Positions 11,937 to 55,110 of a DNA stretch of 64,000 nt are shown here, piece by piece. Origin of the DNA: a virus (Duplodnaviria; Caudoviricetes); the IMG/VR virus record IMGVR_UViG_3300033144_005408, positions 2,107 to 66,106 of that record. One strand, 5' to 3'. Below the pieces are notes generated by a model, which was given only the letters and a program-made list of their open reading frames with translations, did no database searches and was not told where the DNA came from. Each line of letters opens with the position of its first letter. Positions within the stretch are counted from its first letter, which is position 1. The position numbers were made by a program, and so were the translations under genes.

Positions 11937-12533
11937 TTAATGTTTTCTATTTCTTGGCATTAGTAATCGTACACAATTATCTGTTTCCTGTATTCCTTGT
12001 ATGAAGGATATAAATTCAGTTTCATTTTTCGTAATATCAAAATCGTAATAAAATTCAAATCTACCAGGAATAACATATTGGTTGTAGACTTTGTAAGGGA
12101 TATCTGATCCATTTTTTTTCACTATAAACCAGAAGTCTCCTCCATTACCATCCACTGTCACCTTTATTTTGTGGTATTGGATAAGGTAAGAGATCGTCAT
12201 GTGGGCCTGTATTGGATTGTTTTTCATATCATCTACCCCTTCTCTGAGGGATTGTGCCATAGAGTCCATGTTAATCGCTAAAAAGCCCTCTAGATGGATT
12301 TCAAGACATGTGTCAGTTACTCGATTTTCTATTCGTCTTTTTGAACGAAACTCTGACTCAATAGAATCTTTATGCCAGTGGATAACCACAACACTATCCA
12401 TGGGTTTTATAATACTTAGAGCTTCCGTAGCAGAAAGTTTGTTGCGGGTAAATACTTCAGCCAGAATGAAGGGTCTCTGGCAGGTAGCTTTCACCGCTAC
12501 CAAGAGGAGGATGAATAAAAGTAATTTTTTCAT
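11937..12533 (-). CDS. secreted protein with signal peptide
   Basis: MKKLLLFILLLVAVKATC-Q; DSV, DSI, DSM sequons. Confidence 0.6.
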   Translation of the reverse strand: MKKLLLFILLLVAVKATCQRPFILAEVFTRNKLSATEALSIIKPMDSVVVIHWHKDSIESEFRSKRRIENRVTDTCLEIHLEGFLAINMDSMAQSLREGVDDMKNNPIQAHMTISYLIQYHKIKVTVDGNGGDFWFIVKKNGSDIPYKVYNQYVIPGRFEFYYDFDITKNETEFISFIQGIQETDNCVRLLMPRNRKH

Positions 12534-17884: not shown

Positions 17885-18745
17885 CTACCTTAATTTAGAA
17901 ACAAACTCAATCGCTGCTCTGGCATCCTCAATACCCCAACCTTCTCCGGCTAGGATCTTCTTATAGCTCTCTGTATGGAGATCAGTAAAGCCGGAATTAA
18001 TATCCAGCTCATTCATCCCTACTGTGATTTTACGGTATGACCTGCCGCCACCTGGGATGTTTTTAGGGTCAATAGAGAGAATATATCTAACATAACTACC
18101 ACCCTCAAAACCTAAGCCACCCTCTATCATAGACTTTGTTTGCTTAAATACCGCATTCCTTACAATAGGACCAAATACGTAAATGAGCATATCGAACAGG
18201 TGTATTGCGATATTAGTGGCAATACCACCAGACTTTTCGACATCTCCTTTCCAACTATATTTATACCAACTACCCCTGGCAGTGTAGTATTCAAGATTAA
18301 TGTCATAATGAGTAGAAATATTATCCATCGTCTTCTTGAGTTTGATTATCTCCGGATGAAGACGCATTTGGAGAATGACATTTACTTTCTTTCCTGTTGA
18401 CTGTTCTAATTCCTGAATTCCGTCCAGGTTTCGGGTATTCAACACAAGAGGCTTCTCGCAAATGACACTAAGCCCAGAACGTAACCCATAGCGTATATGG
18501 GCATCATGTAAATAATTGGGTGAACATATCACCAGGTAGTCAATAGTTCCTCTGAGCTTATATAGCTCCCTGTCCATGCGCTCAAATTCCCGGAAGTATT
18601 TGGCCTCTGGAAAGTAAGAATCTATTATTCCTACTGAGTCACTTGGGTCGTGGAAGCAAACAAGTTCTCCACCTGTATCTTTGATGGCTTTAAGGTGTTT
18701 TGGACTCACATACCCTGCGGTACCGAACATTGCATAGCGTTTCAT
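17885..18745 (-). CDS. wbpB: Gfo/Idh/MocA oxidoreductase, WbpB/WlbA-like UDP-GlcNAcA 3-dehydrogenase
   Basis: GTAGYVSPKHLKAIKDTG, DPSDSVGIIDSYFP, SPNYLHDAH, CEKPL, SWKG..KSGGIATNIAIH, FTDLHTESY. Confidence 0.88.
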   Translation of the reverse strand: MKRYAMFGTAGYVSPKHLKAIKDTGGELVCFHDPSDSVGIIDSYFPEAKYFREFERMDRELYKLRGTIDYLVICSPNYLHDAHIRYGLRSGLSVICEKPLVLNTRNLDGIQELEQSTGKKVNVILQMRLHPEIIKLKKTMDNISTHYDINLEYYTARGSWYKYSWKGDVEKSGGIATNIAIHLFDMLIYVFGPIVRNAVFKQTKSMIEGGLGFEGGSYVRYILSIDPKNIPGGGRSYRKITVGMNELDINSGFTDLHTESYKKILAGEGWGIEDARAAIEFVSKLR

Positions 18746-36800: not shown

Positions 36801-39800
36801 ACATATAAAGAGGCATGGGATCACGCAGATAAACTGTCCACGACAACTGTTCACTCTCTCGACATCACACCCGATCTCGGTACAGTAGCAATGGAAAGAG
36901 GTTTTCCAATGTTCAAAAACATCAAGAAACCAAGAACAGCCGGAGAAGTATTGTCTTCTGACTTCAATATCAAAGCTAAAGAATTAGTTGACAGGCTGGG
37001 AAAAGAGCTTGGAACAGATATTATAACCGTTCAAACTGCCAGTAAGCTACCAAAAAGCATTCAGGCAAAGGCTAAAAAGATCACAGCAAAAGGATTCGTG
37101 GGGGTATATGACCGTAACACAAGCAAAGTGTACATTGTACTTGATCAGGCGAATGATCTTGCTGACATCACTAAAACAGTGCTTCATGAGGTTGTTGGAC
37201 ACAAAGGAATAGAAGCTCTTCTGGGGGACCAGTATTACAAGGTGCTTGATGGAATATATAATTCTATGAGCCAAGAGGATGTTAAGAGATTAGGTGCAGC
37301 CAATAACACTAATGATCCTAATATTATTGCTGATGAGTATCTGGCAGAGCAAGCGGAGAATGACAAGAGGCCTGATTTTATTACCAGAGCTATTGCTAAG
37401 ATCAGAGAGATGCTTCGTAGAATATTTGGTATTGAGTATAACAATAATGATATCACTGTTCTTTTGGCTAACTCAAAAAGGGGTTTACAGAAAGTCGCAG
37501 TAGCCAAGAAACCTGCTCCTGTACGAGCCGGGGATATGCTGAAAGAAACAAAAGGCCAGAAGGCACCTGGTTTTAGAATTGTAGGAACAGAAGCATCATT
37601 ATCCGATCCTAAATTAAACAATCGCCTTACTAATGCTATCCGTTTAGAAAAAGAAGGGAAAACGGCTCGTAAAATATTTTTAGCTACCGGATGGGAAAAA
37701 GGGAAAGATGGCCTTTGGAGGATAGATCTGCCTGACAATAACCTAAAGCTAATCAATGTTGATAATTGGCAGAAAGCTTTTAATGCTAATATTGGCAAAA
37801 ATAAGTATATTGGGGGTAAATTAATAGATTACATTTCACCTAAATGGGAGGGCTTTAATGAATACCCGGAAATCAAAGACTACAAAATCAGGTTCTTCCA
37901 AGAAGAAGAGGAAGGAACAGGCATCTACCTCGAAAAAACAATCTTCATCAATACCTTCCGATCTAAAACCAGGGACCTTTCCAAAGGGGTTCTGGGAAAA
38001 GATAGGCATGGGATTTTAAGAAGTGTCATTCTACATGAACTCCAGCATGGGATTCAGGAAATTGAAGGCTTTGCAAAAGGGGCAAATATTAAAAACATAT
38101 TCCCTGAAAATACCTTAAAGAAGTATCAAGGATATTCTAACAAGCAAATATTTGACAGGTTTAATCAAGTTAATCCTAATTGGAAAGAGCAATACCCCAC
38201 ACTTGAATCTGGTATTATTGATGGATCGCAAAAATCAAAAGCAATAACAATACTAGCTTATTTAGATGTAAGTGGCGAAGTTGAGGCTCGTAATGTAGTT
38301 GCCAGAGATAAAATGTCTGAGACTATTCGTAAGCTAACCCCTATCTCCGAAACAGAAGACACCCCAAGAAGCAAACAGCGTGCAGGGGATATGCTCAAAG
38401 GAGAAGTTGCGCTGAAGCAGGAAAAGAAAGCTGAGGATAAAACATATAGAGAATACCCTAAAGATAAAAACCTTGACCTATTTGAAAGAAACCAAGAAAA
38501 AGAAAACCTACCACTAACACACTCATCTGTCCATTTTGAATATGAGCCGGGATTAAGGCATATTTATAAAGACCCTACTTCTTATGATGAAGTTCAGGCT
38601 ATTTATGACAAACAAGGGTATTTGAATGAGGGGTATTTGCCTAATCATTATGACCCCAGTGATTTTCAGCTAAAAGAAGGATATGTAGCCGCCAGAAACA
38701 GTAGTGATACTGAGACTCCTGGTGTTTATGGTACAGCAACCTCAGATGACTTTGTTGTGTATTTTGAAGGAGAACACATTGCTGATATTTACGATGGTGT
38801 CATTGCGAAAGTTGTTAAGCCGTTGGATGTTTGGGAAAAAACAGGAAGAGAGTTTAAGCAAATAAAAAAAGCTCCCATTTCAGTTGCGCTGAAAGCAAAG
38901 CCACAAACAGAGACACCAGCCTTTCAGAAATGGTTTGGAAAATCTAAGGTGGTGGATAAGAATGGGAAGCCTTTAGTGGTTTATCATGGGACGAAAGGAG
39001 TGTTTAATGCTTTTACCAGAGAATCTAAAGGAAAAACAGGAGATTTTGGACAAATAGGTTCAGGGTTTTATTTTACAAATGACTTTGAAAACGCTAGAAA
39101 TTACGCTAGAAATTCAGAGGGAGTAGGAAGTCTTGATGTTAAAGAGGTCTATCTTAATATTAGAAATCCATTCATACAAAACAAGCCATTTGATTCAACG
39201 AGACCTGTTAGTAAAGAAAAAGCTGAAAAAGTGGCAGAAGATTTACAAAGGAAAGGTTATGATGGTATTAAATATGATACCGGATTTGGACCTACATGGC
39301 ATGTTGCCTTTTCCCCTACCCAAATAAAATCAGCCACAGGAAACATCGGAACTTTTGACCCAAAAAGTCCTGACATAAGACTAAAGCCTATTCCAGAAAA
39401 ACCTGTTAAGGTAAAAAGAAGAGTTTTGGCCGGGGATATGTTGAAAGATGATAAGCCTCCAACAACTGGTCCTCCAGCAAAACTTCCCCCCGTTACTTCT
39501 GAAAATGCTTCTTGGGAGCCTTCACTAGAACCAATAGACCTTAGTTCCAGAGAGAAGGTTATGAAAGTTCTTCAGGACAGAGAGATGGCTATCAAGAAGT
39601 TCCAGGAAAAGGTAGTAGAAAAAGGCGGTGAGATTCCTGAATACATGGAGCTACATGATGCTATCCCAAGAGCAGCAGGTCAGAACAGAACAGCTATTGA
39701 GGATTTTAATGAGAAACTTGGAAAACCTCTTCTTCAATCTATTGCTGACATAGAGAATGAGACAGGCGTGGGTTATGCCAGAACATCAGATTATCTTTAT

Positions 39801-42426: not shown

Positions 42427-44442
42427 ATGATTCTCTCAACTAATTTTAACCTAAAATCCTTTGACAAGGATGTCATTGTCTCCGGGAAGAAAAAACAGCA
42501 GGTGAAATCTCATCTGGATGACGAAGACCGTGACGATAATATTAAGTTATTAGAGGATTGTGCTAATTACTGGTTCAGTCTTCTTGACTTTCGTGACAGA
42601 AGAAAGAAAAGCCGCAAATATCTTCGTGGTGATCAGTGGCATGAATTAATGACGGATCCCGATGATCCTACTTCTACTATCACAGAAGAAGAATATATTG
42701 AGAATCAGGGCAAAGTGCCGTTAAAGCAGAATATCACCCGCCAGCTGGAGAAAAACCTTGTTGGCCAATTCAGGGCTAATCCTTTTGATAGTATTATTAT
42801 TGCCAGAGACAGAGAGGAAGCAAAGATCTCTGAGATGGTAACTATTGCCATGAAGTCTATTAAGTCTATCAACAAAGCCAAAGAGCTTGATGTCAGAAAC
42901 TTTGAAGAAATTGTTCTCTCTGGTATGCCTATTGGAAAAACTACCTTCAGATATTGGGATAACAAAAATCGTGAGGATGTGTTTATGGAGAATATTAATC
43001 CTAACAGAATATTTTTCAACACTGATGTTTCGGACGTAAGAATGCTGGACCTGAATCTTATAGGTGAGATTCTTGATGTTAACCTGGGAGACGTAATTGC
43101 TTCCTTTGCCAAAACCAAGGCTGATGAAGAAGTTATTCGTGGATGGTATGTTGATCAGGATATCGATAGTATCGTTATTCCCGAAGGGCTTAGTGCAGAC
43201 CGTATTGATTTCACTGACTTCTATATTTCTGTTGATGTTCATAAATGCAGAGTTATTGAGGTATGGAGAAAATATCATGAATGGAGGCTTTATGTTCATG
43301 ATCCGCTAGATGCCAGCTATGAAATTGTTCCTATGGCCATGAAAGACGAGCTGAATAAGGCTAACGAGAGCCGTATGCAGATGGCACAGGAAAACGGTAT
43401 AGAGGATCCAGAAAGTTATTTGATGCAGATAGAAGAGAAATATGAGCCTTATTGGATGGTAAAATATCTTACCCCGACAGGCGAAACCCTTTATTCCGGA
43501 GAAACGCCTTATGATCACGAAGAGCACCCATATACAATTCAGCCTTATCCAATGCTTGACAATGAGGTATGGGGACTTATTGAGGATGTTATTGACCAGC
43601 AGAGATATATTAACCGTCTTATTACCCTCATGGACTTTATGATGGGATCAGCAGCCAAAGGAGTGCTTCTTATTCCAGACGGATCTATTCCTGATGACAT
43701 GACACCTGATGATGTGGCTTCCGAATGGAGTAAGTTTAATGGAGTGCTGAGACTAAAGATGAAGGCCGGTGTGCCTGTTCCTCAACAGATACATGCTAAC
43801 ATGGCAAATATTGGAGCTAAAGACATGCTTGCATTACAGCTAAAGTTTATGCAGGAAATATTTGGATCTTCACCAGCTATACAAGGACAACAGGCAGCCA
43901 GTGGAACACCATCGTCACTGTATGCTCAGGAGGCACAAAACGCCACTCTTAACTCAAAAGATATAATGGATCACTTTGCCTGGTATATTGAGAACCGGGA
44001 CCAGAAAGTATTAAAGCTGATGCTGCAGTACTATACCGAAGAAAGGTATATTAATATCGCAGGGACTTCTTATTCTGACGAAGCAAAGATTTTCAAACCT
44101 GACCTGGTAAAAGATGTGGATATTGACTTAGAGGTAACACAGGGTGTTGATACTCCTATCTACCGACAGATGATTGATGACCTGTTATTCAAGATGCTTG
44201 AGAGTAATTTTGTCGATGTAGATACTTTCTTAGAAAACACCTCTCTTCCTTTTGCCGACAAGGTATTGGAATCTATTAAGTCCAAGAGACAGCAGATGCA
44301 GGAAGGGATGGCTCCCGGAGCAGAGTTGCCACCAGAACTCCAGGGACAGGACCAGTTATCGCCACAGACCCAACAAGTATTTGACCAGCTTATGAACAAG
44401 GCCAAGAACGGTGAACAATTCGATAACGTTGTTAACAACTAG
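42427..44442 (+). CDS. portal protein
   Basis: YLRGDQW, IDQQRYINRL, SAAKGVL, EWSKFNG; 671 aa, podovirus portal-like. Confidence 0.8.
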   Translation: MILSTNFNLKSFDKDVIVSGKKKQQVKSHLDDEDRDDNIKLLEDCANYWFSLLDFRDRRKKSRKYLRGDQWHELMTDPDDPTSTITEEEYIENQGKVPLKQNITRQLEKNLVGQFRANPFDSIIIARDREEAKISEMVTIAMKSIKSINKAKELDVRNFEEIVLSGMPIGKTTFRYWDNKNREDVFMENINPNRIFFNTDVSDVRMLDLNLIGEILDVNLGDVIASFAKTKADEEVIRGWYVDQDIDSIVIPEGLSADRIDFTDFYISVDVHKCRVIEVWRKYHEWRLYVHDPLDASYEIVPMAMKDELNKANESRMQMAQENGIEDPESYLMQIEEKYEPYWMVKYLTPTGETLYSGETPYDHEEHPYTIQPYPMLDNEVWGLIEDVIDQQRYINRLITLMDFMMGSAAKGVLLIPDGSIPDDMTPDDVASEWSKFNGVLRLKMKAGVPVPQQIHANMANIGAKDMLALQLKFMQEIFGSSPAIQGQQAASGTPSSLYAQEAQNATLNSKDIMDHFAWYIENRDQKVLKLMLQYYTEERYINIAGTSYSDEAKIFKPDLVKDVDIDLEVTQGVDTPIYRQMIDDLLFKMLESNFVDVDTFLENTSLPFADKVLESIKSKRQQMQEGMAPGAELPPELQGQDQLSPQTQQVFDQLMNKAKNGEQFDNVVNN

Positions 44443-46246: not shown

Positions 46247-46999
46247 TTAGTCCGGACGAATCCGGCTGTTAAACTCGGTCATAAAGTTAGTTAATTCATG
46301 AGGAAATAACGAATTTAATGCTTTAACGTCTTTGGGGAAACAAGAACCGGAATATCCGGGCTTCCCGTCTGCGGCAACCTGTGAGAATTCACTATACAAC
46401 CCCTCACGTAATATCTTGTAGGCTCTGGCGAATTTTCGGTGATCTCCTGTCAGTTCAGAAATATAGTTCCAAAAAAGTACCTTATACGCATTATAGACAT
46501 TATGAGTGTATTTGATCATCGATGCCTCTGAGTGAGTACAAAACTCGTATTTCTCAATATTTACATCAAAATTGTCTTCATAAACTCTTTTTAGTTCCAG
46601 GCAGTCTCTCATAAACCCGCCCAGGATACACAGCTTTTGATTTTGAAAATCATCGGCTGCACTGTTTTGATTCAGGAACTCAGGATTCACCACCACATGA
46701 GCAGTGCTTTTGGTCATTCCACCCGGAGAAAGCAGTCCGGGAAGCACAGTGCTCTTAATAACAATAAGTTTTGCTTTCATGATCAGTGTCGCCCTGTTAA
46801 AAGCATCTGTGACCTGACTTAGGTCCTGAGATCCGTCTTTGTTGGCAGGAGTGCCTACGCAGATAAAAGCTATATCCACCTCTTCCTCGCACTCATATCC
46901 CTTACCGGGATCGTGAATAAATACTTTTACCCCTGTCTTGATTCCAGAATGGACAGCCTGTCCGACAAATCCATATCCAATAATTCCAATTCTATCCAT
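46247..46999 (-). CDS. UDP-glucose/GDP-mannose dehydrogenase family (lacks the C-terminal domain)
   Basis: GIIGYGFVG, ICVGTP, IKSTV.PG, NPEFL, SMIKY..N, GYSGSCFPKD. Confidence 0.9.
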   Translation of the reverse strand: MDRIGIIGYGFVGQAVHSGIKTGVKVFIHDPGKGYECEEEVDIAFICVGTPANKDGSQDLSQVTDAFNRATLIMKAKLIVIKSTVLPGLLSPGGMTKSTAHVVVNPEFLNQNSAADDFQNQKLCILGGFMRDCLELKRVYEDNFDVNIEKYEFCTHSEASMIKYTHNVYNAYKVLFWNYISELTGDHRKFARAYKILREGLYSEFSQVAADGKPGYSGSCFPKDVKALNSLFPHELTNFMTEFNSRIRPD

Positions 47000-47372
47000 T
47001 ACTCCCCCTTTCTACAACATCAAGCCTCCTGTCATGTTCTCTTAGCCTGGTGTCCTGTTCTCCTTGTTTTTTATTTAGTCCCTTCAAATCCTTTGCGTGG
47101 CTATCAAGCCTTTTTGTAACATGAGTCGTTGTCGCAGCACAATTACTAACGAAGTTCTTGTAATTGGCATTGGCAACCTCACTAGAGGTGAGTAATTTAT
47201 TAAAAGCCTTGGTCTGTTCTTTTTGGATCAAAGTATTTTTCTCCTGCGCCAAGGTGTTTTTCTCTTGGAGCTTTCCTGTTTTAGAGATAGTATTATTGAC
47301 TATCAAAAGGATTAGCGCAAATACGGCTGCTAGTAAAGAGCTGACGATTGCTGTTGTGGTTGTCGGTTCCAT
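46992..47372 (-). CDS. single-TM coiled-coil protein (holin/spanin-like)
   Basis: N-terminal TM, next to endolysin. Confidence 0.45.
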   Translation of the reverse strand: MEPTTTTAIVSSLLAAVFALILLIVNNTISKTGKLQEKNTLAQEKNTLIQKEQTKAFNKLLTSSEVANANYKNFVSNCAATTTHVTKRLDSHAKDLKGLNKKQGEQDTRLREHDRRLDVVERGSNG

Positions 47373-47457
47373 GTCGAAAATTGTTTTTAATCATTAATAA
47401 TTGGTTTAACACATCATCTCTCTCACCTTTAGTTACTTTGCGTAGTTCCTATTTCTT

Positions 47458-47802
47458 TCATTTTGGATCGTATTCTAAATGAATGTGATCTTTCTCTAAT
47501 ACAATATCATAATTCTTATCAATCTCTTTTTTTATTGTTTCAACTAACTGTTTAGTTTGCTTCTTCGTGTAATGCCAAATACGGATATCAACAGCATCTC
47601 CTTTTGGATGTTTACTATTTTCAGAATGAAGTCCTTCAATACCACAAGTTATAACAATACCTATTCCAAATAACCCCAAGCTCAAATCATGTACAAGTTC
47701 ATACCCCACACGAATCCATGCACTCAATTCTACTTTATGCCATTCGTCATTGTAGAACACTTCCCCTTTACGGACAACACCGTCTTTCCATTGAACATCC
47801 AT
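47458..47802 (-). CDS. peptidase M15-like endolysin
   Basis: ITCGIEGLHSENSKHPKGDAVDIR...DHIHLEYD (SxH..D, HxH). Confidence 0.8.
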   Translation of the reverse strand: MDVQWKDGVVRKGEVFYNDEWHKVELSAWIRVGYELVHDLSLGLFGIGIVITCGIEGLHSENSKHPKGDAVDIRIWHYTKKQTKQLVETIKKEIDKNYDIVLEKDHIHLEYDPK

Positions 47803-47844: not shown

Positions 47845-48237
47845 TCAATTCAAATAACTTTTTATCGAATCCCTGACTGCCCGGCGGAATTGTCGTTCTA
47901 GTTTATACTTTTCAATTTCAACATTCAACTGATCTCGTTTCTGTTCAAGTCCTTCACGAAATGTCTCTGAGTAGCTTGTGTCTTTTATCTGCACAATGTA
48001 ATCCATTTTAGTCTGCCTCCAGGATTTGATCTGCTCTGTTAATGCCCTGATATTGTTAGGCAAAGCCTTGTAAGTTACCTGTCTTTGCGCCGTATCAGGC
48101 ACGTAGCTAATCAATCTGAAATACGCCTCGTTTGTTTCACTTACCGAATCCACCCGAATGTCAAATACTACTTGATTTTGAGCAAATGCTCCGAGTGATA
48201 AAAAAATTGCTGTTAAAATTGTTAGTGTTTTTTTCAT
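47845..48237 (-). CDS. signal-peptide protein, coiled coil (possible fibre chaperone)
   Basis: MKKTLTILTAIFLSLGAFA-Q; DSV, DTA, DSI. Confidence 0.6.
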   Translation of the reverse strand: MKKTLTILTAIFLSLGAFAQNQVVFDIRVDSVSETNEAYFRLISYVPDTAQRQVTYKALPNNIRALTEQIKSWRQTKMDYIVQIKDTSYSETFREGLEQKRDQLNVEIEKYKLERQFRRAVRDSIKSYLN

Positions 48238-48275: not shown

Positions 48276-49172
48276 TCATAATGGTTGAATTATAAATGTT
48301 GTTTTTGTATCAGTAGCAGTAGGAGCAGGAGTAGTAGTGTAGTTGATAATTAATTGAGGTGGATTTTTATACAATTCACCCGTTCCCCAAGTATAACCTC
48401 CACTTACATACGTCCATGTAGTCCCCACGTTATTATCAGGAGCACCAGCAGTAGTAAAATCAGCCCCACCGCTATTATCCGTAATCATATAAAAAGCCCC
48501 AACAATAAGTGCACCTGATGTTACCATTTCGTTTATCGCAAATTCCAGCTCATAATAAACTGATGTGCCAGGTTCTACATCTAAATAGTCATGTTCGTAT
48601 TCTCCCACTCCATAACTTACCATATTAGAATACTGCTCAGATTGAGTGTACACCGTCCCAAGAGAGAAAGTGTTATACCCTGAAGCCGTTGTTAAGCTGT
48701 GAGTTATTTTCTCAAATGGAGGATAAGCTAATACCGACTTTGCCCCGACTATGCGTATATAATCCTGGTAAGTATCCACTCCTGCAAAAGTATAAGGAGC
48801 AGCATAGATAGTAGTCCCAACATTTGAACTGGCACTATTAGAATACAGTCGCAAGCTGATAGAAGTGATTATAATATCCCCAAGCGCATGAACAGCGTTT
48901 GTATTAAACAATACTCCGAATCTTTTAATGGTGGTTGAAACAGCATAACTCTGCACATATAAGTCTGCCGTTGTTGGGTCTTTACTGTAAAAAGAAACTC
49001 CACCAAAATTATTTCTGACATAATCCCAGCGTCCACCCCCAATAAGAGGAAGTGAGTATTTCCCGGTTTGACAACTTTTGCCTACCCCCGTGAGAGTGAT
49101 AGATTGAGCTGCACACGTTATTGACATAATCAATAGACTCAAAACAAATAATATTTTTCTAACTTTTATCAT
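48276..49172 (-). CDS. signal-peptide beta-rich protein (tail-associated)
   Basis: MIKVRKILFVLSLLIMSITCAA-Q; ITSISLRLY...PQLIINYT. Confidence 0.6.
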   Translation of the reverse strand: MIKVRKILFVLSLLIMSITCAAQSITLTGVGKSCQTGKYSLPLIGGGRWDYVRNNFGGVSFYSKDPTTADLYVQSYAVSTTIKRFGVLFNTNAVHALGDIIITSISLRLYSNSASSNVGTTIYAAPYTFAGVDTYQDYIRIVGAKSVLAYPPFEKITHSLTTASGYNTFSLGTVYTQSEQYSNMVSYGVGEYEHDYLDVEPGTSVYYELEFAINEMVTSGALIVGAFYMITDNSGGADFTTAGAPDNNVGTTWTYVSGGYTWGTGELYKNPPQLIINYTTTPAPTATDTKTTFIIQPL

Positions 49173-52100
49173 AACTTAAAATCTATTGTTACATGAAGAC
49201 CTAAAACATTTGTGCCTGTGGCGTCTATATCAACCCGTAAATAATCTCCACCATTAACAACTCTAGTTCCCGCATTTGTGCTTGTAGAAGATGCGTAATA
49301 TTGCCCAGGTGTGCATATTGCTTTTGCACTCAAAACATCTCCCCACGAAGGCGCACCGGAACTTTGAGAATTAGCTATTTGCACTTCTACATTCCCACTC
49401 GTACTAGCACTAAACAAACGAATACTGACTCTATGAACATGCCAGCCGTCTAAGCCATATGGGATAGCTATATACGCTTTATCAGTTCCCAGGGGAGCAG
49501 CTGCTATATCAACCACCTCTACCGATAGCGACCTTTCACCTAAATCAAGATCGTCTCTTGCTTGTGAATAAGATCGTCCCTCTAACCCCGTTGATGTGAA
49601 TTTTGCATACTCATTATCAGCCGGAGTGTTTTCGGCTTTCATTACATTAGTATTGGCAATGCCGAATGTTAAGGCATCTTGTTTGGTATTTAGTCCAGAT
49701 GTAGTCCAACTCTGCGTTGCCACTCTGCTTCCACCATCATAGACCTGTGTTCCATAAAGCCTTGTTCCATACAAATACCCATCATAATTAAGCCTATTCG
49801 TGCTTGTTGGGGTTGTTGCGCCATTATAAAAAGTACCTGCTATCCGTCCGCTATAAGGCTCGTATTTAAGAGTGCTGGTGTTCCAATTTAAAACATCGTC
49901 CTGAATAGAAGTGGCTCCAAGTTTGTTGTTAAAAATGTCCCAATCAGTGTCATTCAAGGCTCCTGTTGTTGAGGTAGATGAAAGAGCAAGGCTTAGTTGT
50001 TGAGTAGAAAGCGATAGTCCGTTTGCTGTTCCAATGGTAACAGGATTATGTATTGCTGCGTTCCATGCTGCTGCGGAAGCAATATAAGCATCTGCTATCT
50101 GCGTAGATTGCCATGTGCCTATATTGATAGTTCCAAGCGTTGTGATGCTGACAGACCCAGCCAATAGAGAAAAGATACTTGAAAGGCTAGTGCCATTTAC
50201 CGTTGGCATATTTGTTACCTCTAAATCGGCAAACCACCCCTTTATTAACCTCGATCCTGTCAATCCCAATGAGCCAGTCATTGTTATATCATTTCCGCCT
50301 AATGCCAGATTACCGCCTCCCAATGTTAATAAATTTGCAGAATGAGTTAACGTAATGTCTGGAGTTGATGGAGCCGTGTTCCAGGTAATTACACTTTCAT
50401 TTCCAAGGAATAAATCTGACCAAGCAATTGCAGTAGTTCCCAAAGCATCGGTGTTGTCTATATCTGAAACTAATGTTGTATTAATTGCCACGCTCGAAAG
50501 ATTATCAAGTGCTTTTGTCGATGCGTCGATTTCGTCTAGTACCTCTAATGCTGTCCTGCCCTCTAATCCATTCGCCGTAAACCTGCCAAACTCACCATCA
50601 TTAACTGTTCCGTCAATTTCCACAATATCGTCATCAGCTATACCCACCGAGGCTGCAGAAATAGCCGTGCCATTTCCTTCGAGTAATCCGGTTATTGAAG
50701 TTGTTAATGTGATTACGGGTGTAGTTGTTGAAGTGGCAACTGTCCCTGCAAAACCGTTAGCCGTTGCGACTGCAACACTTTTAACCGTTCCTGTGCCAGT
50801 TGGTTCATTTTGCCATATTGCACCATTGCAAATTGCCTTATCCCCAATAACAAAAGCAATTCCCCCCGCCCCGAAATCAGTTGTACCAGCCACTACACAT
50901 ACATAATACCATCCCGCATCACCCACCCCATCTGCTAATTCTGGAGTATTAGTATTGGCATTCCAAGTGCCTTTAAAAACCTGATCTGCGGTTGGAGCTA
51001 CGAATGATAAAACGTTTTTTCCGTCTGTCGATATAAGATCACCGGCATTTCCATCAGCGCCGGGCCATTGATAATCTACTCCGTTGATATTTAGATTACT
51101 TCCAACAACCGTTAAGTCATCCCCTATTTCCAAATCCCCCGCAATAGTATTAGAAGTCCCATCAACATCAAGATCACCAACAACATTAAATGTTCCATCA
51201 GACAGGGTTTTCCATAATACAGTGGTGGCGTTTTCAGCATCATTCCAGACCCTTAACTGGAATCCCTCATTTGTTACTCCTACGTTTCTAAGTTCATATA
51301 TCCTTTTATCAGCCGTGCCTCCTGTTTTTCTGAATCTAATCGCTGGATCGGTGCTTTCAACTTCAATAGCTGCATTTTTTGCAGTTGTTGACTTGGTAAA
51401 TTTGTTAATATTTGAGAATGATTGGATTTGATCTAAATAAGCTACATTGGATAATATCCCTGCTGTATTAATATTACTGCCCCCTATTAAATAGCCCGCA
51501 TCAGTATCAAGCAACCCTGACGCATCTAATACCATTCTTTCAACTTCGTCAACCCACCATTGATGTTCTGAACCCCCAACTTCCTTATTTAAATCCGCAT
51601 CATATCTTAATATTCCACCGTTGCCTGTCACTACCTGATCTGTTCCGTCATCTGAATCGGTTAATGTTAACGATGGTGAAGATGTTAAACTTGTAAATCC
51701 CCCTGTTATTTTAAAGTCACCATTTGGATATGCACCAAATAATTCAACTGTTACATCTTCAGCATCATTCCATTTTCTTACTTGAAAGTAATTTGTGTTT
51801 CTAATTTCATAAATACGCTCATTAGCCGTGCCTCCTGTCCTTCTGAATCTAATCGCTGGATCGGTGCTTTCAACTTCAATAGCTGCATTTTTTGCAGTTG
51901 TAACAAAAGTTAAGTTTATATTCCCACTGGCAAAAGTTAATGTATTAGCCGAATGAGTCAAAATAACATCCCCATTATCCCAATTTATTACACCTCCCGA
52001 AGCCAGAAATAAGTCGCTCCACATTTTTGAGCCTGATCCTAAAGCCCCTCCGTCACTCGCACCTAAAAGCAAACTGGTATTTATTGCCACACTCGAAAGG

Positions 52101-54418
52101 TTATCAAGTGCTTTTGTAGCCGCACCTATGTCACTTAATACCTCTGCTGCTGTTCTGAATTTCACCAATCCTGCATCTTCAGTCAAAAAATCCCCGGCTC
52201 CATTTGCTATTGAGCTAATGGTTAATGTATTTGCAAGAGTAGCCGCGCTGGTTGTAGCACTAAAGGATAGAGCTGTAACATCTACTGTAGCATTGAAAGT
52301 GTGAAATTCTAATGCTGTATTATTATTATCGGTAGAAATACCTACAATATATGGAGAATCCGTCAAGTCATTTTTAAAATATAATTTATTCACTCCTGTA
52401 ATCCTTACGTCCTGAGCAAATAACCAATCTTGATCCGCTTCAATTGTAGCTGATAAAATATTGTTAGTCGCAAAACCTATTGTATTTGATCCAATTAAGT
52501 ACATTCCGTTGCTTGCCCAGCCAATGGCCGGGATTGAAGGTATGCCATTATTTGATGCTCGAAGCCATCCACCTGAAATTGTGTCGGTTGCCGTTATATC
52601 AACAAAACCCCCCAAGTCGTTTCCTATCCAACTAGCCGTACCGTCTGTGAGTGAGACCAATCCAGTTTGTTCTCCTGCCGTAGTAGACCAAGTCCCATCT
52701 GTTAAGGTTGCAGCTGTTAATGAAAACGCACCTAAGTCAACATCCCTATTCGCACCTTCATATGGAACCCTGTTTGAGCTATCTGCTATAAGGTTTGTAA
52801 TATCCCCCAAATTTGCATATATCAGCCCGTTGTGAATATCTAATGAATCTAAAACAGCATAATGTTTAACTGAATAATCTGAAAGACTATCGTAAACTGA
52901 AACAGTCAGGGTATCCAACATGGTATGAGTAACAATAATATCTACCGTATCAGTCCATGCAATATAATTATCAAGTGAATCACTCAACTGAGTAGGCGTA
53001 ACGAAATCCGTTAATGAATCTGACCGAAGCATATATTGTGGATGGTCATCGTCAGATAGCCCCGATAAGTCTCCATGATTTGGTACTGCTGAGTGTGGAA
53101 ACAGTTTAGCATAAGCACTTTCAATAGCATAAAAACTACTCTCATTTTTACCAATGATAATCTTTGCCGCTGGAAATGCAAAGTCACCTATAATAGCAGG
53201 AAGAACAGGGGGTTGGACTGCAATTTCTGCTTCAGTTAATGAGTAACTATCCCACCCATATACAATCAAAACATGACCGTCATTATCTCCATAAACCCAA
53301 TGAATACCATATTTATTATTTCCTAATATTTCTAATCCTGAAGTCGTATCGTTATAATAAAGATTATCTATTTGAGTTTCGTTTTTTAATTCAATCCAAT
53401 CTGGATTATCATAATAATAATAAGTAAAATAATCGCCTGTCTCAGTATTAATCCCTGTTGTGGTTATTTTAGTTAATCCTGCACGAAGTATCCCGTTTGT
53501 CGTAGTTATATTCCTTGTACCTGTTTCACCAACTTCAATTCCACTCGCCCGAACCACCTCGCCAAATACCTCTGTCAAATATCCGAGAGTATTTTTAGGT
53601 GTTTCTGCAATTAACATTCCTGCCGTCACACAATGACATTCAGCACTATCTCGAAACACTTTACCAAGCAAGATTTTATCCCGATTATTCCCGACTGATT
53701 TTGTAGTAGTTGCTTTTATAATCGGCGTACCACCATCATAATCGACATAGATATAGTTAACTGTTTGATCGACCAATTCAATACTATTATCAGCATCCCA
53801 GTCGAAGGAATAATTGGTTGCCGTTGCCGAATTACTCGCTCGAATAAAGCCCGTACCTGATGTAACCGCAACAGTACTATCTCCATTATTTGAAATCACT
53901 CCGCCCGAAATCTTACCTGATGACTGAGTTATGTTTATGAATTGCTGTAAATTATCATAGGTAGCATCGTTTAGTTTAGCGATATTAACACTATCGGCAA
54001 CTGTTGCGTTAGGGGAATGAGCATCAAGTGAATCGCTTAACTGTGTTGGAGTAGCAAAAACAACTGTTGAGTCAGAGGGTAAAATGTATCTTCCATCAAA
54101 ACCAGTGCTATCCACTACCACACCCTGATTATACCCACGTAAATATCCGTCTGACACAGAAAATCTTATGCTGTCATACCCATAATTAGCCGCAATAGAA
54201 TCTTCTAGTTGCTGTACGTTAACAGCATCAGTAGAATCCAGACCAGCCATTAGCTGCTTTATCCGAAAACTACTCATATTCATGCTATCAGCCAGAAAAG
54301 CACTGTCCTTATACATGATCTTGTCATATACATAAACTATCTCAGCATCCACATCCTGAGCGAAAAGATTTGGCAGAGTGAAGATCCAGAGTGATAATAT
54401 GAATAGTAGTTTTCTCAT
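49169..54418 (-). CDS. long tail fibre / receptor-binding-like protein with N-terminal signal peptide
   Basis: G/T/S/N-rich mosaic; DAVNVQQL, HGDLSGLSDDDHPQY, FKGTWNA, GTVKSV, KQDAL fibre motifs; MRKLLFILSLWIFTLPNLFA-Q. Confidence 0.75.
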   Translation of the reverse strand: MRKLLFILSLWIFTLPNLFAQDVDAEIVYVYDKIMYKDSAFLADSMNMSSFRIKQLMAGLDSTDAVNVQQLEDSIAANYGYDSIRFSVSDGYLRGYNQGVVVDSTGFDGRYILPSDSTVVFATPTQLSDSLDAHSPNATVADSVNIAKLNDATYDNLQQFINITQSSGKISGGVISNNGDSTVAVTSGTGFIRASNSATATNYSFDWDADNSIELVDQTVNYIYVDYDGGTPIIKATTTKSVGNNRDKILLGKVFRDSAECHCVTAGMLIAETPKNTLGYLTEVFGEVVRASGIEVGETGTRNITTTNGILRAGLTKITTTGINTETGDYFTYYYYDNPDWIELKNETQIDNLYYNDTTSGLEILGNNKYGIHWVYGDNDGHVLIVYGWDSYSLTEAEIAVQPPVLPAIIGDFAFPAAKIIIGKNESSFYAIESAYAKLFPHSAVPNHGDLSGLSDDDHPQYMLRSDSLTDFVTPTQLSDSLDNYIAWTDTVDIIVTHTMLDTLTVSVYDSLSDYSVKHYAVLDSLDIHNGLIYANLGDITNLIADSSNRVPYEGANRDVDLGAFSLTAATLTDGTWSTTAGEQTGLVSLTDGTASWIGNDLGGFVDITATDTISGGWLRASNNGIPSIPAIGWASNGMYLIGSNTIGFATNNILSATIEADQDWLFAQDVRITGVNKLYFKNDLTDSPYIVGISTDNNNTALEFHTFNATVDVTALSFSATTSAATLANTLTISSIANGAGDFLTEDAGLVKFRTAAEVLSDIGAATKALDNLSSVAINTSLLLGASDGGALGSGSKMWSDLFLASGGVINWDNGDVILTHSANTLTFASGNINLTFVTTAKNAAIEVESTDPAIRFRRTGGTANERIYEIRNTNYFQVRKWNDAEDVTVELFGAYPNGDFKITGGFTSLTSSPSLTLTDSDDGTDQVVTGNGGILRYDADLNKEVGGSEHQWWVDEVERMVLDASGLLDTDAGYLIGGSNINTAGILSNVAYLDQIQSFSNINKFTKSTTAKNAAIEVESTDPAIRFRKTGGTADKRIYELRNVGVTNEGFQLRVWNDAENATTVLWKTLSDGTFNVVGDLDVDGTSNTIAGDLEIGDDLTVVGSNLNINGVDYQWPGADGNAGDLISTDGKNVLSFVAPTADQVFKGTWNANTNTPELADGVGDAGWYYVCVVAGTTDFGAGGIAFVIGDKAICNGAIWQNEPTGTGTVKSVAVATANGFAGTVATSTTTPVITLTTSITGLLEGNGTAISAASVGIADDDIVEIDGTVNDGEFGRFTANGLEGRTALEVLDEIDASTKALDNLSSVAINTTLVSDIDNTDALGTTAIAWSDLFLGNESVITWNTAPSTPDITLTHSANLLTLGGGNLALGGNDITMTGSLGLTGSRLIKGWFADLEVTNMPTVNGTSLSSIFSLLAGSVSITTLGTINIGTWQSTQIADAYIASAAAWNAAIHNPVTIGTANGLSLSTQQLSLALSSTSTTGALNDTDWDIFNNKLGATSIQDDVLNWNTSTLKYEPYSGRIAGTFYNGATTPTSTNRLNYDGYLYGTRLYGTQVYDGGSRVATQSWTTSGLNTKQDALTFGIANTNVMKAENTPADNEYAKFTSTGLEGRSYSQARDDLDLGERSLSVEVVDIAAAPLGTDKAYIAIPYGLDGWHVHRVSIRLFSASTSGNVEVQIANSQSSGAPSWGDVLSAKAICTPGQYYASSTSTNAGTRVVNGGDYLRVDIDATGTNVLGLHVTIDFKL
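51311..51901. repeat. 78-bp intragenic direct repeat in the fibre gene
   Basis: 51311-51388 vs 51824-51901, 2 mismatches. Confidence 0.85.
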
Positions 54419-55110
54419 TACTTGTATTTCTGTGCTGTAATGTAAACATTAGCGTTCCCGGTAATAGTCACATGGATTGTTGTATAGGCATTGATAGGAG
54501 GAGCTACTACCATAGAGTAACTTCTTCTGTTAGTAGTACTAGCCTCTTTTAGTCTTAGGATCTCATATCCTCCCAGGGTCCACCCTACTTTTACTGTGGT
54601 AGGATTTCCGTCTGATGAAGCTATTGTGACACCATTTACCTGATAATCGGAATCAAAAGGAATAGTCCTGGCTCCCGAAAGACCTTCGATAGTAAAATAT
54701 AGTGAAGGAGATTTTACCCACTTTCGGGTTTTGTTTATCTGAGAGCTTAAAATATATTCATTCCCATCCGGTGCCCCAAGATCCAGTTCATACAGCGCAA
54801 CAAGATCCAATATATCCTGCCATGATACGCTTGTGACCTGGACAGCCCCGGTAAGCACTTCTATTTGAATATAATCATCAGGCTCGTTTATTGTGACCAG
54901 ACCAACAGCATCATCAATAGTAACGGTAACAAGGAAATCATCATCAATAGGAGTAACAGAGATATTTCCTATCCCGTCCGAATCTTCTTCTACATTTATC
55001 TGGGTATCTTCACTGGCATCTTCTGCGAAAACTAAAGGACTAGCCTCACCCTCAACCGTTATAGATGGTTGAGCACCTTCTGTTACTGATATAAGGCCAA
55101 TTAATGCCAT
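54418..55110 (-). CDS. putative tail protein
   Basis: acidic beta-rich, coupled to the fibre gene. Confidence 0.5.
   Translation of the reverse strand: MALIGLISVTEGAQPSITVEGEASPLVFAEDASEDTQINVEEDSDGIGNISVTPIDDDFLVTVTIDDAVGLVTINEPDDYIQIEVLTGAVQVTSVSWQDILDLVALYELDLGAPDGNEYILSSQINKTRKWVKSPSLYFTIEGLSGARTIPFDSDYQVNGVTIASSDGNPTTVKVGWTLGGYEILRLKEASTTNRRSYSMVVAPPINAYTTIHVTITGNANVYITAQKYK

What the first reader, a model, noticed from the sequence alone, without database searches (positions are those of the whole stretch)
49169..54418. Tail-fibre-like protein with a Sec signal peptide and a dense cluster of Bacteroidota O-glycosylation sequons
Seen: the N-terminus MRKLLFILSLWIFTLPNLFA-Q is a typical SPI signal. 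By hand I count 19 D-(S/T)-(A/I/L/M/T/V) motifs in the first ~615 aa (DSA, DSM, DST, DSI, DSI, DST, DST, DSL, DSV, DST, DSA, DTT, DSL, DSL, DTV, DTL, DSL, DSL, DTI). I found none in the remaining ~1130 aa, which is also D/S/T-rich. Known: this is the sequon of the general Bacteroidota O-glycosylation system, which acts on exported proteins; Caudoviricetes fibres normally assemble in the cytoplasm. Inference: the phage exports its fibre so that it is glycosylated, then attaches it at or after lysis (glycan-coated virion), or displays it on the infected cell.
Basis: partly seen in the sequence, partly recalled or inferred. Interest (0 to 1): 0.88.

Follow-up and report, generated by a model that had tools for sequence, protein, structure and literature searches.

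The report
Phage tail fibre with export signal
A 66-kb phage, probably of Bacteroidota, gives its only tail-fibre-like protein the host's own secretion signal and packs the first third of it with the host's sugar-attachment motif while keeping the rest free of it, so the fibre probably matures outside the cytoplasm.

Summary
It starts with a Bacteroidota-type Sec/SPI signal (Ala-20|Gln-21). It carries 19 D-(S/T)-(A/I/L/M/T/V) sequons in aa 1-615 (4.7 expected; 0 of 10,000 shuffles reach 19) and none in the other 1134 aa (7.7 expected). In the first part 19 of 21 D-S/T dipeptides are followed by a permissive residue. The rest has only 4 D-S/T dipeptides, none permissive. The genome's other ORFs match chance (45 vs 44.8), and its other signal-bearing ORFs are enriched (11 vs 3.9). 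Among 266 fibre homologues only one reaches this density, and it also has an Ala|Gln signal.

Pfam, PHROGs, fold and synteny mark the protein as the tail fibre of a phage whose nearest cultured kin infect Bacteroides. Two more signal-bearing genes and a likely lysis cassette follow it. In cultured Cellulophaga phages phi18:3 and phi10:1, seven proteins with such signals are annotated as virion proteins from MS/MS.

Export plus host O-glycosylation is the best reading (about 0.6). Joining the virion at lysis is plausible but untested. Surface display is disfavoured.

This scan has noted the same theme before on other DNA (100 notes in at least 85 genomes). I found it in no paper.

The parts
49169..54418 (-). 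Tail-fibre-like gene, 1749 aa (P0001)
   Evidence: ORF and translation. PHROG tail protein match at aa 1146-1228. It lies downstream of the SU10-type capsid gene and head-tail genes, at the position of the BS-TP4 gp14 fibre.
54359..54418 (-). Predicted Sec/SPI signal peptide, aa 1-20, with cleavage predicted between Ala-20 and Gln-21
   Evidence: n-region MRK, 12-residue h-region with mean KD 2.6, c-region PNLFA, Gln at +1. The start codon overlaps the upstream stop as TAATG. The cleavage is inferred; no predictor was run.
53987..54307 (-). First sequon cluster, aa 38-144: 9 sequons. It includes a YadA-stalk-like motif at aa 58-84.
   Evidence: Positions. Pfam PF05662 scores 26.2 bits, below its 28.4 cut-off.
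53009..54001 (-). Widespread fibre module, aa ~140-470, with 3 sequons (aa 180, 257, 357) whose Ser/Thr sit in turns of the model
   Evidence: 3759 hits at E<=0.001 in the 50% representative library. AlphaFold model with pLDDT 81. Best Foldseek PDB matches are phage baseplate and tail-fibre chains, but with low TM-scores. The DGT turn is changed to DST only in this protein and in P0006.
52841..53020 (-). Second sequon cluster, aa 467-526: 6 sequons in 60 aa
   Evidence: Positions. It begins with the duplicated ~24-aa segment.
49172..52573 (-). Sequon-free distal part, aa 616-1749
   Evidence: 0 sequons against 7.7 expected, and 4 D[ST] against 17.2 expected. It contains repeat modules shared with fibres that lack a signal, and a ~95-aa module shared with minor tail proteins of Gordonia and Xanthomonas phages.
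48276..49172 (-). Second signal-bearing gene, 298 aa (P0169), start overlapping the fibre's stop; possibly a carbohydrate-binding partner
   Evidence: Signal ending ..CAA|Q. The 65%-identical homologue P0173 keeps a signal ending ..VSA|Q. The ESM Atlas structure search gives viral clusters and CBM96-like folds at TM 0.5-0.58, which is a lead only. It has 0 sequons.
47845..48237 (-). Third signal-bearing gene, 130 aa (P0170), whose C-terminal half looks coiled-coil by eye
   Evidence: Signal ending ..AFA|Q and 3 sequons against 0.4 expected. No family match.
46992..47802 (-). Likely lysis genes: a 114-aa ORF (weak endolysin match) and a 126-aa membrane ORF (weak holin match)
   Evidence: PHROG phrog_894 E 0.0016 and phrog_1296 E 0.0038. 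Both are weak.
54418..55110 (-). Upstream 230-aa gene without a signal, translationally coupled to the fibre gene
   Evidence: ORF, TAATG overlap, no family match.

Best explanation
The 1749-aa protein is the phage's receptor-binding tail fibre, and it is made as a secretory precursor.

Inferred steps, none shown:
1. The host Sec machinery exports it.
2. Signal peptidase I cuts between Ala-20 and Gln-21. By the Bacteroidetes Q-rule, Gln-21 would then be cyclised to pyroglutamate.
3. In the periplasm the host's general O-glycosylation system loads glycans on up to 19 D-(S/T)-x sites. These lie in the proximal third, mainly in the two linker segments that flank a conserved fibre module.
4. The distal two thirds, which carry the repeat and tip modules, have been kept free of sequons, so folding and receptor binding are not disturbed.
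5. Two further exported proteins from the next two genes travel with it. One is possibly carbohydrate-binding.
6. With no membrane anchor and no outer-membrane secretion signal, the mature fibre waits in the periplasm. It meets the particle built in the cytoplasm only when the adjacent lysis genes breach the inner membrane.

Shown: the sequence features, their statistics and the gene context.
For: (1) The signal has canonical anatomy with Gln at +1. The first start codon is coupled to the upstream stop.

(2) The next two genes also carry Ala|Gln signals. A 65%-identical homologue of the first one keeps its signal.

(3) Sequons: 19 against 4.7 expected in aa 1-615, and 0 of 10,000 shuffles reach 19. 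19 of 21 D[ST] dipeptides are permissive against a background of 0.41 (P 3e-6).

(4) The rest of the protein has 0 sequons against 7.7 expected, and only 4 D[ST] against 17.2 expected, none permissive.

(5) Within the genome the four other signal-like ORFs give 11 against 3.9 (P 0.002). The ORFs without a signal give 34 against 40.9.

(6) Only 1 of 266 homologues reaches 19 sequons in a 615-aa window. That one, P0020, has an ..LQA|Q signal, 36 sequons against 9.5 expected, and 36 of 40 D[ST] permissive. Three of the five densest homologues have Q-type signals, against 12 of the other 261 (Fisher 0.0014).

(7) A conserved D-G-T turn (G in 46 of 51 anchored homologues) reads D-S-T only here and in P0006, which also has a Q-type signal.

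(8) Tail-fibre identity: PHROG tail match, fold matches to phage baseplate and fibre chains, a module shared with minor tail proteins, and synteny with the fibre slot of Bacteroides phage BS-TP4.

(9) Host phylum: portal, terminase, capsid and giant protein are 25-39% identical to three Bacteroides phages. All four clean signals in the genome end before Gln.

(10) Virion precedent: phi18:3 gp085-087 and phi10:1 gp091-094 all start with such signals and are annotated as structural from experimental MS/MS.

(11) Established knowledge, from passages of the review PMC12871550: the motif is glycosylated only in non-cytoplasmic proteins, it is nearly fully occupied, and an engineered motif is enough for glycosylation.
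Against: - No signal-peptide predictor could be run, and no experiment exists for this phage.
- The host is inferred, not known.
- The capsid protein of this phage and of its two examined Bacteroides-phage relatives also begins with a hydrophobic, signal-like segment, although capsids assemble in the cytoplasm. Such N-termini therefore need not mean export in this lineage.
- The fibres of those two relatives have no signal.
- An in-frame GTG at codon 23 and an ATG at codon 35 could give a form without the signal.
- The signal-bearing virion proteins of Cellulophaga phages are sequon-poor, not sequon-rich: 3 against 9.8 in phi18:3 and 5 against 11.0 in phi10:1. Export and dense glycosylation are therefore separable.
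- Other Q-signal homologues are also sequon-poor (P0065 0 against 7.2; P0142 3 against 11.4).
- The distal depletion is matched by 3 of 100 homologues.
- The 3851-aa giant protein, which has no signal, is also depleted (2 against 10.1). I cannot explain this.
- MS/MS detection in a virion preparation does not show that the signal was used.
Confidence: 0.6

Rival explanations
1. The protein is exported and glycosylated but is not a virion part. It is a soluble periplasmic protein, or one released at lysis, built from fibre modules. It might mask or occupy the receptor, protecting progeny from binding debris or excluding superinfection, or it might act on the envelope or capsule together with the CBM96-like neighbour.
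For: The product would have no anchor and would be soluble in the periplasm. Two co-exported small proteins follow it, one with a possible carbohydrate-binding fold. The gene sits next to the likely lysis genes. The homologue P0006 combines a signal, this module and a beta-helix lyase domain.
Against: It is the only fibre-like gene I recognised in the structural operon, and it sits in the slot that fibres occupy in relatives. It shares modules with genuine minor tail proteins. Signal-bearing analogues in two cultured phages were found in virions by MS/MS. Many ORFs remain unannotated, so another receptor-binding protein cannot be excluded.
Confidence: 0.17
2. There is no export. The fibre folds and joins the tail in the cytoplasm as in textbook tailed phages. 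The hydrophobic N-terminus has another role (docking, membrane-associated assembly, removal by a protease) or is skipped through an internal start. The D-S-hydrophobic cluster is a structural feature of the shaft linkers.
For: The capsid proteins of this lineage also carry hydrophobic N-termini. Matrishin et al. treat such capsid 'signal peptides' as protease-cleaved (PMC10367356, passages). Alternative in-frame starts exist. Part of the cluster comes from a duplicated segment. Linkers rich in Asp and Ser/Thr occur in homologues without a signal.
Against: The fibre's N-terminus is a short, canonical n-h-c signal ending Ala|Gln, unlike the ~40-residue hydrophobic capsid N-terminus. The two next genes carry the same kind of signal. 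Homologues without a signal show no enrichment (633 against 817 expected; permissive fraction 633 of 1715). Only 1 of 266 homologues reaches this density. The third-position selectivity and the distal avoidance are hard to explain by structure alone.
Confidence: 0.15
3. The N-terminus acts as an uncleaved signal anchor, or the protein is displayed on the infected cell's surface.
For: A YadA-stalk-like motif is present.
Against: The helix-breaking Pro, the small residue at -1 and Gln at +1 fit cleavage. There is no lipobox Cys, no T9SS C-terminal domain or any other NCBIfam match, and no YadA anchor. No route across the outer membrane is visible.
Confidence: 0.05

Closest known systems
Cellulophaga phage phi18:3 gp085-087 (NC_021794.1) and phi10:1 gp091-094 (KC821618.1)
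   Same: These are tail or tailspike-like proteins of cultured Bacteroidota phages. They begin with SPI-type signals ending before Gln and sit in runs of consecutive genes. In phi18:3 the run lies just upstream of the endolysin region. All are annotated as structural from experimental MS/MS. The signal plus the first ~118 aa is 82-83% identical across phages of two families.
   Different: They show no sequence similarity to this fibre. They are sequon-poor (3 against 9.8 and 5 against 11.0), not sequon-rich. I found no paper that discusses their signals. The original proteomics paper is not in the searchable library.
Q-rule signal-peptide genes of Porphyromonas gingivalis phages (Matrishin et al. 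2023, PMC10367356; passages read)
   Same: Phage genes of a Bacteroidota host whose signals expose an N-terminal Gln. The same paper also notes capsid proteins with predicted signal peptides.
   Different: Those five genes are of unknown function and are proposed to modify the host envelope. They are not tail fibres, and sequons are not discussed. The supplementary list could not be seen.
Substrates of the general O-glycosylation system of Bacteroidota (review PMC12871550; passages read)
   Same: The same three-residue motif and the same need for a non-cytoplasmic location. The motif is enriched in exported proteins of the phylum.
   Different: All described substrates are host proteins. The word 'phage' does not occur in that review. 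The density here, 19 sites in about 600 aa with none in the next 1134 aa, was not compared with host glycoproteins.
Mycobacteriophage virion glycosylation (Freeman et al. 2023; recalled, seen only as a cited title in the listing)
   Same: Glycans on structural proteins of a tailed phage.
   Different: As I recall it, phage-encoded glycosyltransferases act in the cytoplasm on capsid and tail-tube proteins. Here a host periplasmic system would act on an exported fibre.
Bdellovibrio bacteriovorus MAT fibres (Caulton et al. 2024, PMC10769870; passages read)
   Same: Trimeric proteins related to phage tail fibres, each starting with a signal peptide and working outside the cytoplasm.
   Different: They are cellular proteins of a predatory bacterium. 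They are not encoded in a phage structural operon, and no O-glycosylation motif is involved.
Trimeric autotransporter adhesins (YadA family)
   Same: A signal peptide plus a stalk-like motif (PF05662, aa 58-84, below the cut-off).
   Different: No membrane-anchor domain was found, so this protein is not a member.

Membership tests
Sec/SPI secretory precursor obeying the Bacteroidetes Q-rule | Positively charged n-region and an uninterrupted hydrophobic h-region of about 7-15 residues | tested here: met
   MRK followed by a 12-residue h-region with mean Kyte-Doolittle 2.6.
Sec/SPI secretory precursor obeying the Bacteroidetes Q-rule | c-region with a small residue at -1, an acceptable residue at -3, and Gln at +1 | tested here: met
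   P-N-L-F-A|Q: Ala at -1, Leu at -3 (tolerated but not the commonest; this judgement is recalled), Gln at +1. The Q-rule as stated in the abstracts of PMC5837995 and PMC10653852 (listing).
Sec/SPI secretory precursor obeying the Bacteroidetes Q-rule | Positive call by a trained predictor, and experimental cleavage | not testable with these tools
   No SignalP or DeepTMHMM was on hand, and there is no proteomics for this phage.
Bacteroidota general O-glycoprotein | D-(S/T)-(A/I/L/V/M/T) motif present | tested here: met
   19 motifs, about 4-fold over chance in aa 1-615.
Bacteroidota general O-glycoprotein | Non-cytoplasmic location of the motif-bearing part | tested here: inconclusive
   Follows only from the predicted signal.
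Bacteroidota general O-glycoprotein | Host possesses the O-glycosylation system, and glycan is detected on the protein | not testable with these tools
   The host is unknown. The nearest cultured relatives infect Bacteroides. No sequencing run was listed.
Phage tail fibre / receptor-binding protein | Encoded in the structural module at the fibre position | tested here: met
   It lies downstream of the SU10-type capsid gene and of the homologue of BS-TP4 gp13, at the position of the BS-TP4 gp14 fibre.
Phage tail fibre / receptor-binding protein | Homology or fold similarity to known tail proteins | tested here: met
   phrog_31460 tail protein, E 5.5e-11. A module shared with minor tail proteins. 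Foldseek matches to the phi812 baseplate (E 2.6e-5), the HFTV1 baseplate and the cyanophage A-1(L) fibre, all with low TM-scores.
Phage tail fibre / receptor-binding protein | Presence in purified virions; trimeric fibre structure | not tested
   There is no isolate. I ran no multimer prediction.
Trimeric autotransporter adhesin | C-terminal YadA-type membrane anchor | tested here: not met
   Pfam finds only a sub-threshold stalk match and no anchor.
T9SS cargo | C-terminal sorting domain (Por_Secre_tail type) | tested here: not met
   No NCBIfam match at E<=0.01 and no Pfam match at E<=0.1.
Lipoprotein (SPII) | Lipobox with Cys at +1 | tested here: not met
   The first Cys is at aa 261.

The most novel reading that the evidence does not exclude
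Tailed phages of Bacteroidota build their virions in two compartments. The head and tail assemble in the cytoplasm. The receptor-binding fibre and its partners are exported by Sec, trimmed to a pyroglutamate N-terminus and coated on the proximal shaft with the host's own O-glycan. They join the particle only when the lysis genes open the inner membrane. The sequon-free distal part and the phage's own nucleotide-sugar enzymes (a UDP-sugar dehydrogenase fragment sits in the same late operon, and glucuronic acid is part of the conserved glycan core) would then be adaptations to this route. The released virion would wear a host-like glycan coat.
Probability: 0.35. Interest if true: 0.9.

Novelty: new variant of a known kind. 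Interest (0 to 1): 0.7.

Why it matters
Textbook tailed-phage assembly is wholly cytoplasmic. Annotation pipelines, and at least one paper I read (PMC6199706), treat a missing signal peptide as consistent with phage origin.

If this fibre really passes through the periplasm and picks up the host's O-glycan, two things follow. Virion assembly would span two compartments. Gut and environmental Bacteroidota phages could carry host-type glycans on their host-recognition gear.

That would bear on protease resistance, mucus and lectin binding, antibody recognition, host-range prediction and the engineering of Bacteroides phages. It would also give the still unexplained Bacteroidota O-glycosylation system a role in phage biology.

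The question can be tested directly in cultured Cellulophaga phages, whose signal-bearing proteins are already annotated as virion components.

Tried and rejected
**Searches that found nothing**
- Near-identical DNA search of the fibre gene in cultured phages: no match.
- Close relatives by single-protein scans of IMG/VR with P0020 and with the capsid protein: none.
- Scans of GTDB genome contigs with alignment A2 and with P0113: no confirmed relative. These scans use a few exact peptide patterns, so this is weak evidence of absence.
- Scan of JGI metagenomes with A2: only 5 loci.
- phmmer against PDB sequences for the fibre, the 865-aa ORF and P0169: 0 hits each.
- Look-up of earlier scan findings by sequence: none.
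- No rhomboid homologue in the window by tblastn at E<=0.01.

**Results that were uninformative**
- The AlphaFold model of P0169 from a 3-sequence alignment failed (pLDDT 30). I did not search with it and relied on the Atlas's own model as a lead.
- The Bacteroidota -7 promoter motif TANNTTTG is not enriched in the window (64 seen against 71 expected). I do not use it for host assignment.
- Cluster look-up of eight signal-bearing homologues gave no names.
- Sequencing runs: none was listed, and no RNA holder was listed.

**Steps I chose not to run**
- Complex prediction. My report does not rest on a claimed protein-protein contact. Both candidate pairs (fibre N-terminus with the 230-aa upstream protein; fibre tip with P0169) are orphans without alignments.

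**Readings rejected**
- Membership in trimeric autotransporters, T9SS cargo and lipoproteins.

**Literature**
- I found no paper describing a Sec-exported or host-O-glycosylated tail fibre of a tailed phage in searches.
- The crassvirus atlas PMC10172136 has 0 occurrences of 'signal peptide' or 'glycosyl'.
- Supplements were closed, so I could not see Supplementary Data 4 of PMC10367356, which lists the Q-rule genes.
- The 2013 Cellulophaga phage proteomics paper is not in the searchable library. The MS/MS evidence is taken from the GenBank notes.

**Limits of my method**
- My signal-peptide calls on homologues are a home-made rule (basic n-region plus at least 9 uncharged hydrophobic residues; 'Q-type' means a Gln after a small residue near the end of the h-region). 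It can misfile individual proteins.

Full report
**What is there.** The finding's interval holds one ORF, on the minus strand (49169..54418, 1749 aa). The window is nearly all of a single 66,106-bp contig held as a virus record. The contig has 38.8% G+C. It carries:
- a portal (42427..44442, +);
- an SU10-type major capsid protein (56865..58226, -; PF17236, E 2e-31);
- a terminase (59794..61776, +);
- a 3851-aa giant protein.

The nearest cultured relatives are three Bacteroides phages. Portal identity is 34-35%. In the two whose loci I fetched (BF1-TP2, BS-TP4), terminase identity is 39% to BF1-TP2, capsid identity 27-29%, and part of the giant protein also matches.

The fibre gene sits in the late minus-strand operon. 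It follows the capsid gene and four small genes, one of which is homologous to BS-TP4 gp13. In BS-TP4 that gene directly precedes the 2645-aa fibre-like gp14. The fibre's ATG overlaps the upstream stop (TAATG), and its stop overlaps the next start.

**Check of the observation.** The N-terminus is as quoted. I count the same 19 sequons at the same places, and none in aa 616-1749.
- Shuffling aa 1-615 gives a mean of 4.75, and 0 of 10,000 shuffles reach 19. The distal part should hold 7.7.
- The signal is specific to the full motif. In aa 21-615, 21 D-S/T dipeptides occur (11.5 expected), and 19 are followed by a permissive residue against a background of 0.41 (P 3e-6).
- In the distal part only 4 D-S/T occur (17.2 expected), followed by D, D, D and P.
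- Reversed or related control motifs are not enriched.
- The null is sound for this genome: all other ORFs together give 45 observed against 44.8 expected.
- An internal duplication of about 24 aa contributes two sequons. The enrichment survives without it.

**Is it special among fibres?** The only part with homologues in the first third is a module at aa ~140-470. It has 3759 hits at E<=0.001 in the 50% representative library, and nothing aligns before about aa 71.
- Its AlphaFold model (pLDDT 81) finds phage baseplate and tail-fibre chains first. The best is phi812 9euj_G at E 2.6e-5, with low TM-scores.
- The 266 homologues collected from both halves have a median of 4 sequons in their best 615-aa window and a 95th percentile of 8.75. 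Only one reaches 19.
- That one, P0020, has an ..LQA|Q signal, 36 sequons against 9.5 expected, and 36 of 40 D-S/T permissive.
- Three of the five densest homologues have Q-type signals, against 12 of the other 261 (Fisher 0.0014).
- Homologues without a signal are, if anything, sequon-poor: 633 against 817 expected and 531 against 752 expected.
- A conserved D-G-T turn of the module (G in 46 of the 51 homologues my pattern could anchor) reads D-S-T only here and in P0006, which also has a Q-type signal.
- In the model, the Ser/Thr of all three sequons inside the module fall in turns between strands.

**The distal depletion must be stated more cautiously.**
- After correcting for the family-wide ratio of 0.72, the Poisson probability of zero is 0.004.
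- Three of 100 homologues of the C-terminal part have an equally long sequon-free stretch.

**Is the signal a family trait? No.**
- By my simple rule, 40 of 167 homologues of the first set have a signal-like N-terminus, as do 11 of 100 in the second set.
- None of the 17 IMG/VR loci has one, nor do the fibres of the Bacteroides phages BF1-TP2 and BS-TP4.
- Two signal-bearing homologues whose contigs I could fetch (L019, L020) lie a few genes downstream of ORFs that match major-head-protein PHROGs: 1 of 4 and 1 of 5 neighbours scanned. They are therefore phage structural genes, not cellular adhesins.
- Other Q-signal homologues are strongly sequon-poor (P0065 0 against 7.2; P0142 3 against 11.4). 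In exported fibres the motif seems to be either used or avoided.

**Surroundings.**
- The next gene (48276..49172, 298 aa) has a signal ending ..CAA|Q and no sequon. A 65%-identical homologue keeps a signal ending ..VSA|Q, and that signal's first eight residues equal those of the fibre's signal.
- The ESM Atlas places this protein's fold near viral clusters and CBM96 carbohydrate-binding modules (TM 0.5-0.58). This is a lead only. My own model failed.
- The gene after it (47845..48237, 130 aa) has ..AFA|Q, a coiled-coil-looking tail (by eye) and 3 sequons against 0.4 expected.
- Then come weak endolysin and holin matches.
- A 198-aa ORF in the early region (11937..12533) also has a signal before Gln, with 3 sequons against 0.4 expected.
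- Together the four other signal-like ORFs give 11 against 3.9 expected (P 0.002). The ORFs without a signal give 34 against 40.9.

**Where would the protein go?** There is no lipobox cysteine (the first Cys is at aa 261). There is no T9SS C-terminal domain or any other NCBIfam match. Pfam gives only a sub-threshold YadA-stalk hit without an anchor. After Sec export and SPI cleavage the product should therefore be soluble in the periplasm. This argues against surface display and leaves release, or attachment to particles, at lysis.

**A test of the virion question by analogy.** Earlier notes of this scan pointed to Cellulophaga phage phi18:3, and I checked this myself.
- In NC_021794.1, gp085, gp086 and gp087 start with signals ending ..GYS|Q..VSA|Q and ..LNA|Q. 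They are annotated as virion structural, structural and tail protein 'based on experimental MS/MS proteomics analysis'. They lie upstream of the endolysin region.
- The signal plus the first ~118 aa of gp086 is 82-83% identical in phages of another family.
- In phi10:1 (Assiduviridae), four consecutive genes gp091-094 all carry such signals, and all are marked structural from experimental MS/MS.
- These proteins are not similar in sequence to the fibre studied here.
- They are sequon-poor: 3 against 9.8 in phi18:3 and 5 against 11.0 in phi10:1.

This shows that proteins with host-type signals do end up in virion preparations of Bacteroidota phages. It does not show how they get there.

**Mechanism proposed.**
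- Shown: the signal anatomy, the motif statistics, the gene context and the homologies.
- Established, from passages of PMC12871550: the motif is glycosylated only in non-cytoplasmic proteins of Bacteroidota, it is usually fully occupied, and an engineered motif suffices. Established, from the abstracts of PMC5837995 and PMC10653852 in the listing: most SPI substrates of the phylum expose Gln, which is cyclised.
- Inferred: export; cleavage at 20|21; pyroglutamate; glycans on up to 19 sites concentrated in the two linkers that flank the conserved module; a sequon-free distal part that keeps folding and receptor binding undisturbed; co-export of two partners; and joining of the particle when the neighbouring lysis genes act.

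**Evidence against, and open points.**
- The capsid proteins of this phage and of both Bacteroides-phage relatives examined also begin with hydrophobic segments. Those two relatives encode a rhomboid-type protease beside the terminase, and I found none here. Hydrophobic N-termini in this lineage therefore do not all mean export.
- In-frame GTG-23 and ATG-35 could yield a cytoplasmic form.
- The giant protein has no signal yet is sequon-poor (2 against 10.1). This is unexplained.
- The host is inferred only.
- No predictor and no experiment back the cleavage.

**Comparison with what is known.** I found no paper that describes an exported or host-O-glycosylated tail fibre of a tailed phage.
- The closest in print is Matrishin et al. 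2023. They noted Q-rule signal genes of unknown function, and capsid 'signal peptides', in P. gingivalis phages.
- The 2025 O-glycosylation review does not mention phages.
- The crassvirus structural atlas mentions neither signals nor glycosylation.
- Bdellovibrio MAT fibres are cellular fibre-like proteins with signals.
- Mycobacteriophage virion glycosylation is, as I recall, a cytoplasmic reaction driven by phage enzymes.

Within this scan the same theme has been noted before on other DNA: 100 notes in at least 85 genomes by a word search. This fibre has no look-alike among them.

**What this case adds.**
- A sharp two-part layout: a sequon-dense proximal third and a sequon-free distal two thirds.
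- The third-position statistics.
- The family-wide empirical controls.
- The extension of the MS/MS precedent to phi10:1, a cultured phage of a second family.

**Verdict.** Export plus host O-glycosylation is the best-supported reading (about 0.6). Incorporation into virions after export is plausible (about 0.35-0.45 overall). Surface display is unlikely.

Noticed in passing
window 58040-58226 (-); L001 8851-10287 (-); L024 23416-24858 (+): The SU10-type capsid protein starts with a ~40-residue hydrophobic segment. So do its homologues in Bacteroides phages BF1-TP2 and BS-TP4. Both of those phages encode a rhomboid-family protease next to the terminase. No rhomboid homologue was found in this window by tblastn. 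This hints at membrane-associated capsid maturation in the lineage.
   Followed up: partly
window 30870-42425 (+): The 3851-aa giant protein has no signal but only 2 sequons against 10.1 expected, and 16 D[ST] against 30.5 expected (Poisson 0.003). Its homologues in BF1-TP2 (9 against 12.4) and BS-TP4 (19 against 17.7) are not depleted. Unexplained.
   Followed up: partly
window 46247-46999 (-), 1891-2964 (+), 17885-18745 (-): The phage encodes nucleotide-sugar enzymes: a 250-aa UDP-glucose/GDP-mannose dehydrogenase-family protein in the late operon, with only the NAD-binding and central domains; a full WecB-type 2-epimerase; and a GFO/IDH/MocA oxidoreductase. Glucuronic acid is part of the conserved O-glycan core (PMC12871550). 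A link to fibre glycosylation is conceivable but untested.
   Followed up: partly
window 54350-54418 (-) and protein P0173: The first eight residues of the fibre's signal are identical to those of the signal of P0173, the homologue of the NEXT gene. This suggests that signal-coding segments are exchanged among these late genes in related phages.
   Followed up: no
window 54314-54352 (-): An in-frame GTG (codon 23, two codons after the predicted cleavage site) and an in-frame ATG (codon 35) could give a form of the fibre without the signal. There is no evidence either way.
   Followed up: no
window 11937-12533 (-): A 198-aa ORF among the early genes has a signal ending before Gln, 3 sequons against 0.4 expected, and no family match. 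It is a candidate exported early protein.
   Followed up: partly
proteins P0002-P0167: 29 of 166 homologues of the fibre module carry signal-like N-termini that do not end before Gln. Exported fibre-like proteins may therefore also occur in phages of other phyla. Two such cases (L019, L020) lie near ORFs matching major-head-protein PHROGs.
   Followed up: partly
L026 4545-6902, L027 4001-6334, L028 4001-6334, L029 4001-6532: The signal plus the first ~118 aa of the tailspike-like, pectate-lyase-annotated proteins is 82-83% identical across Cellulophaga phages of different families (Pachyviridae, Assiduviridae), while the rest differs. It looks like a mobile N-terminal module that includes the signal.
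   Followed up: partly
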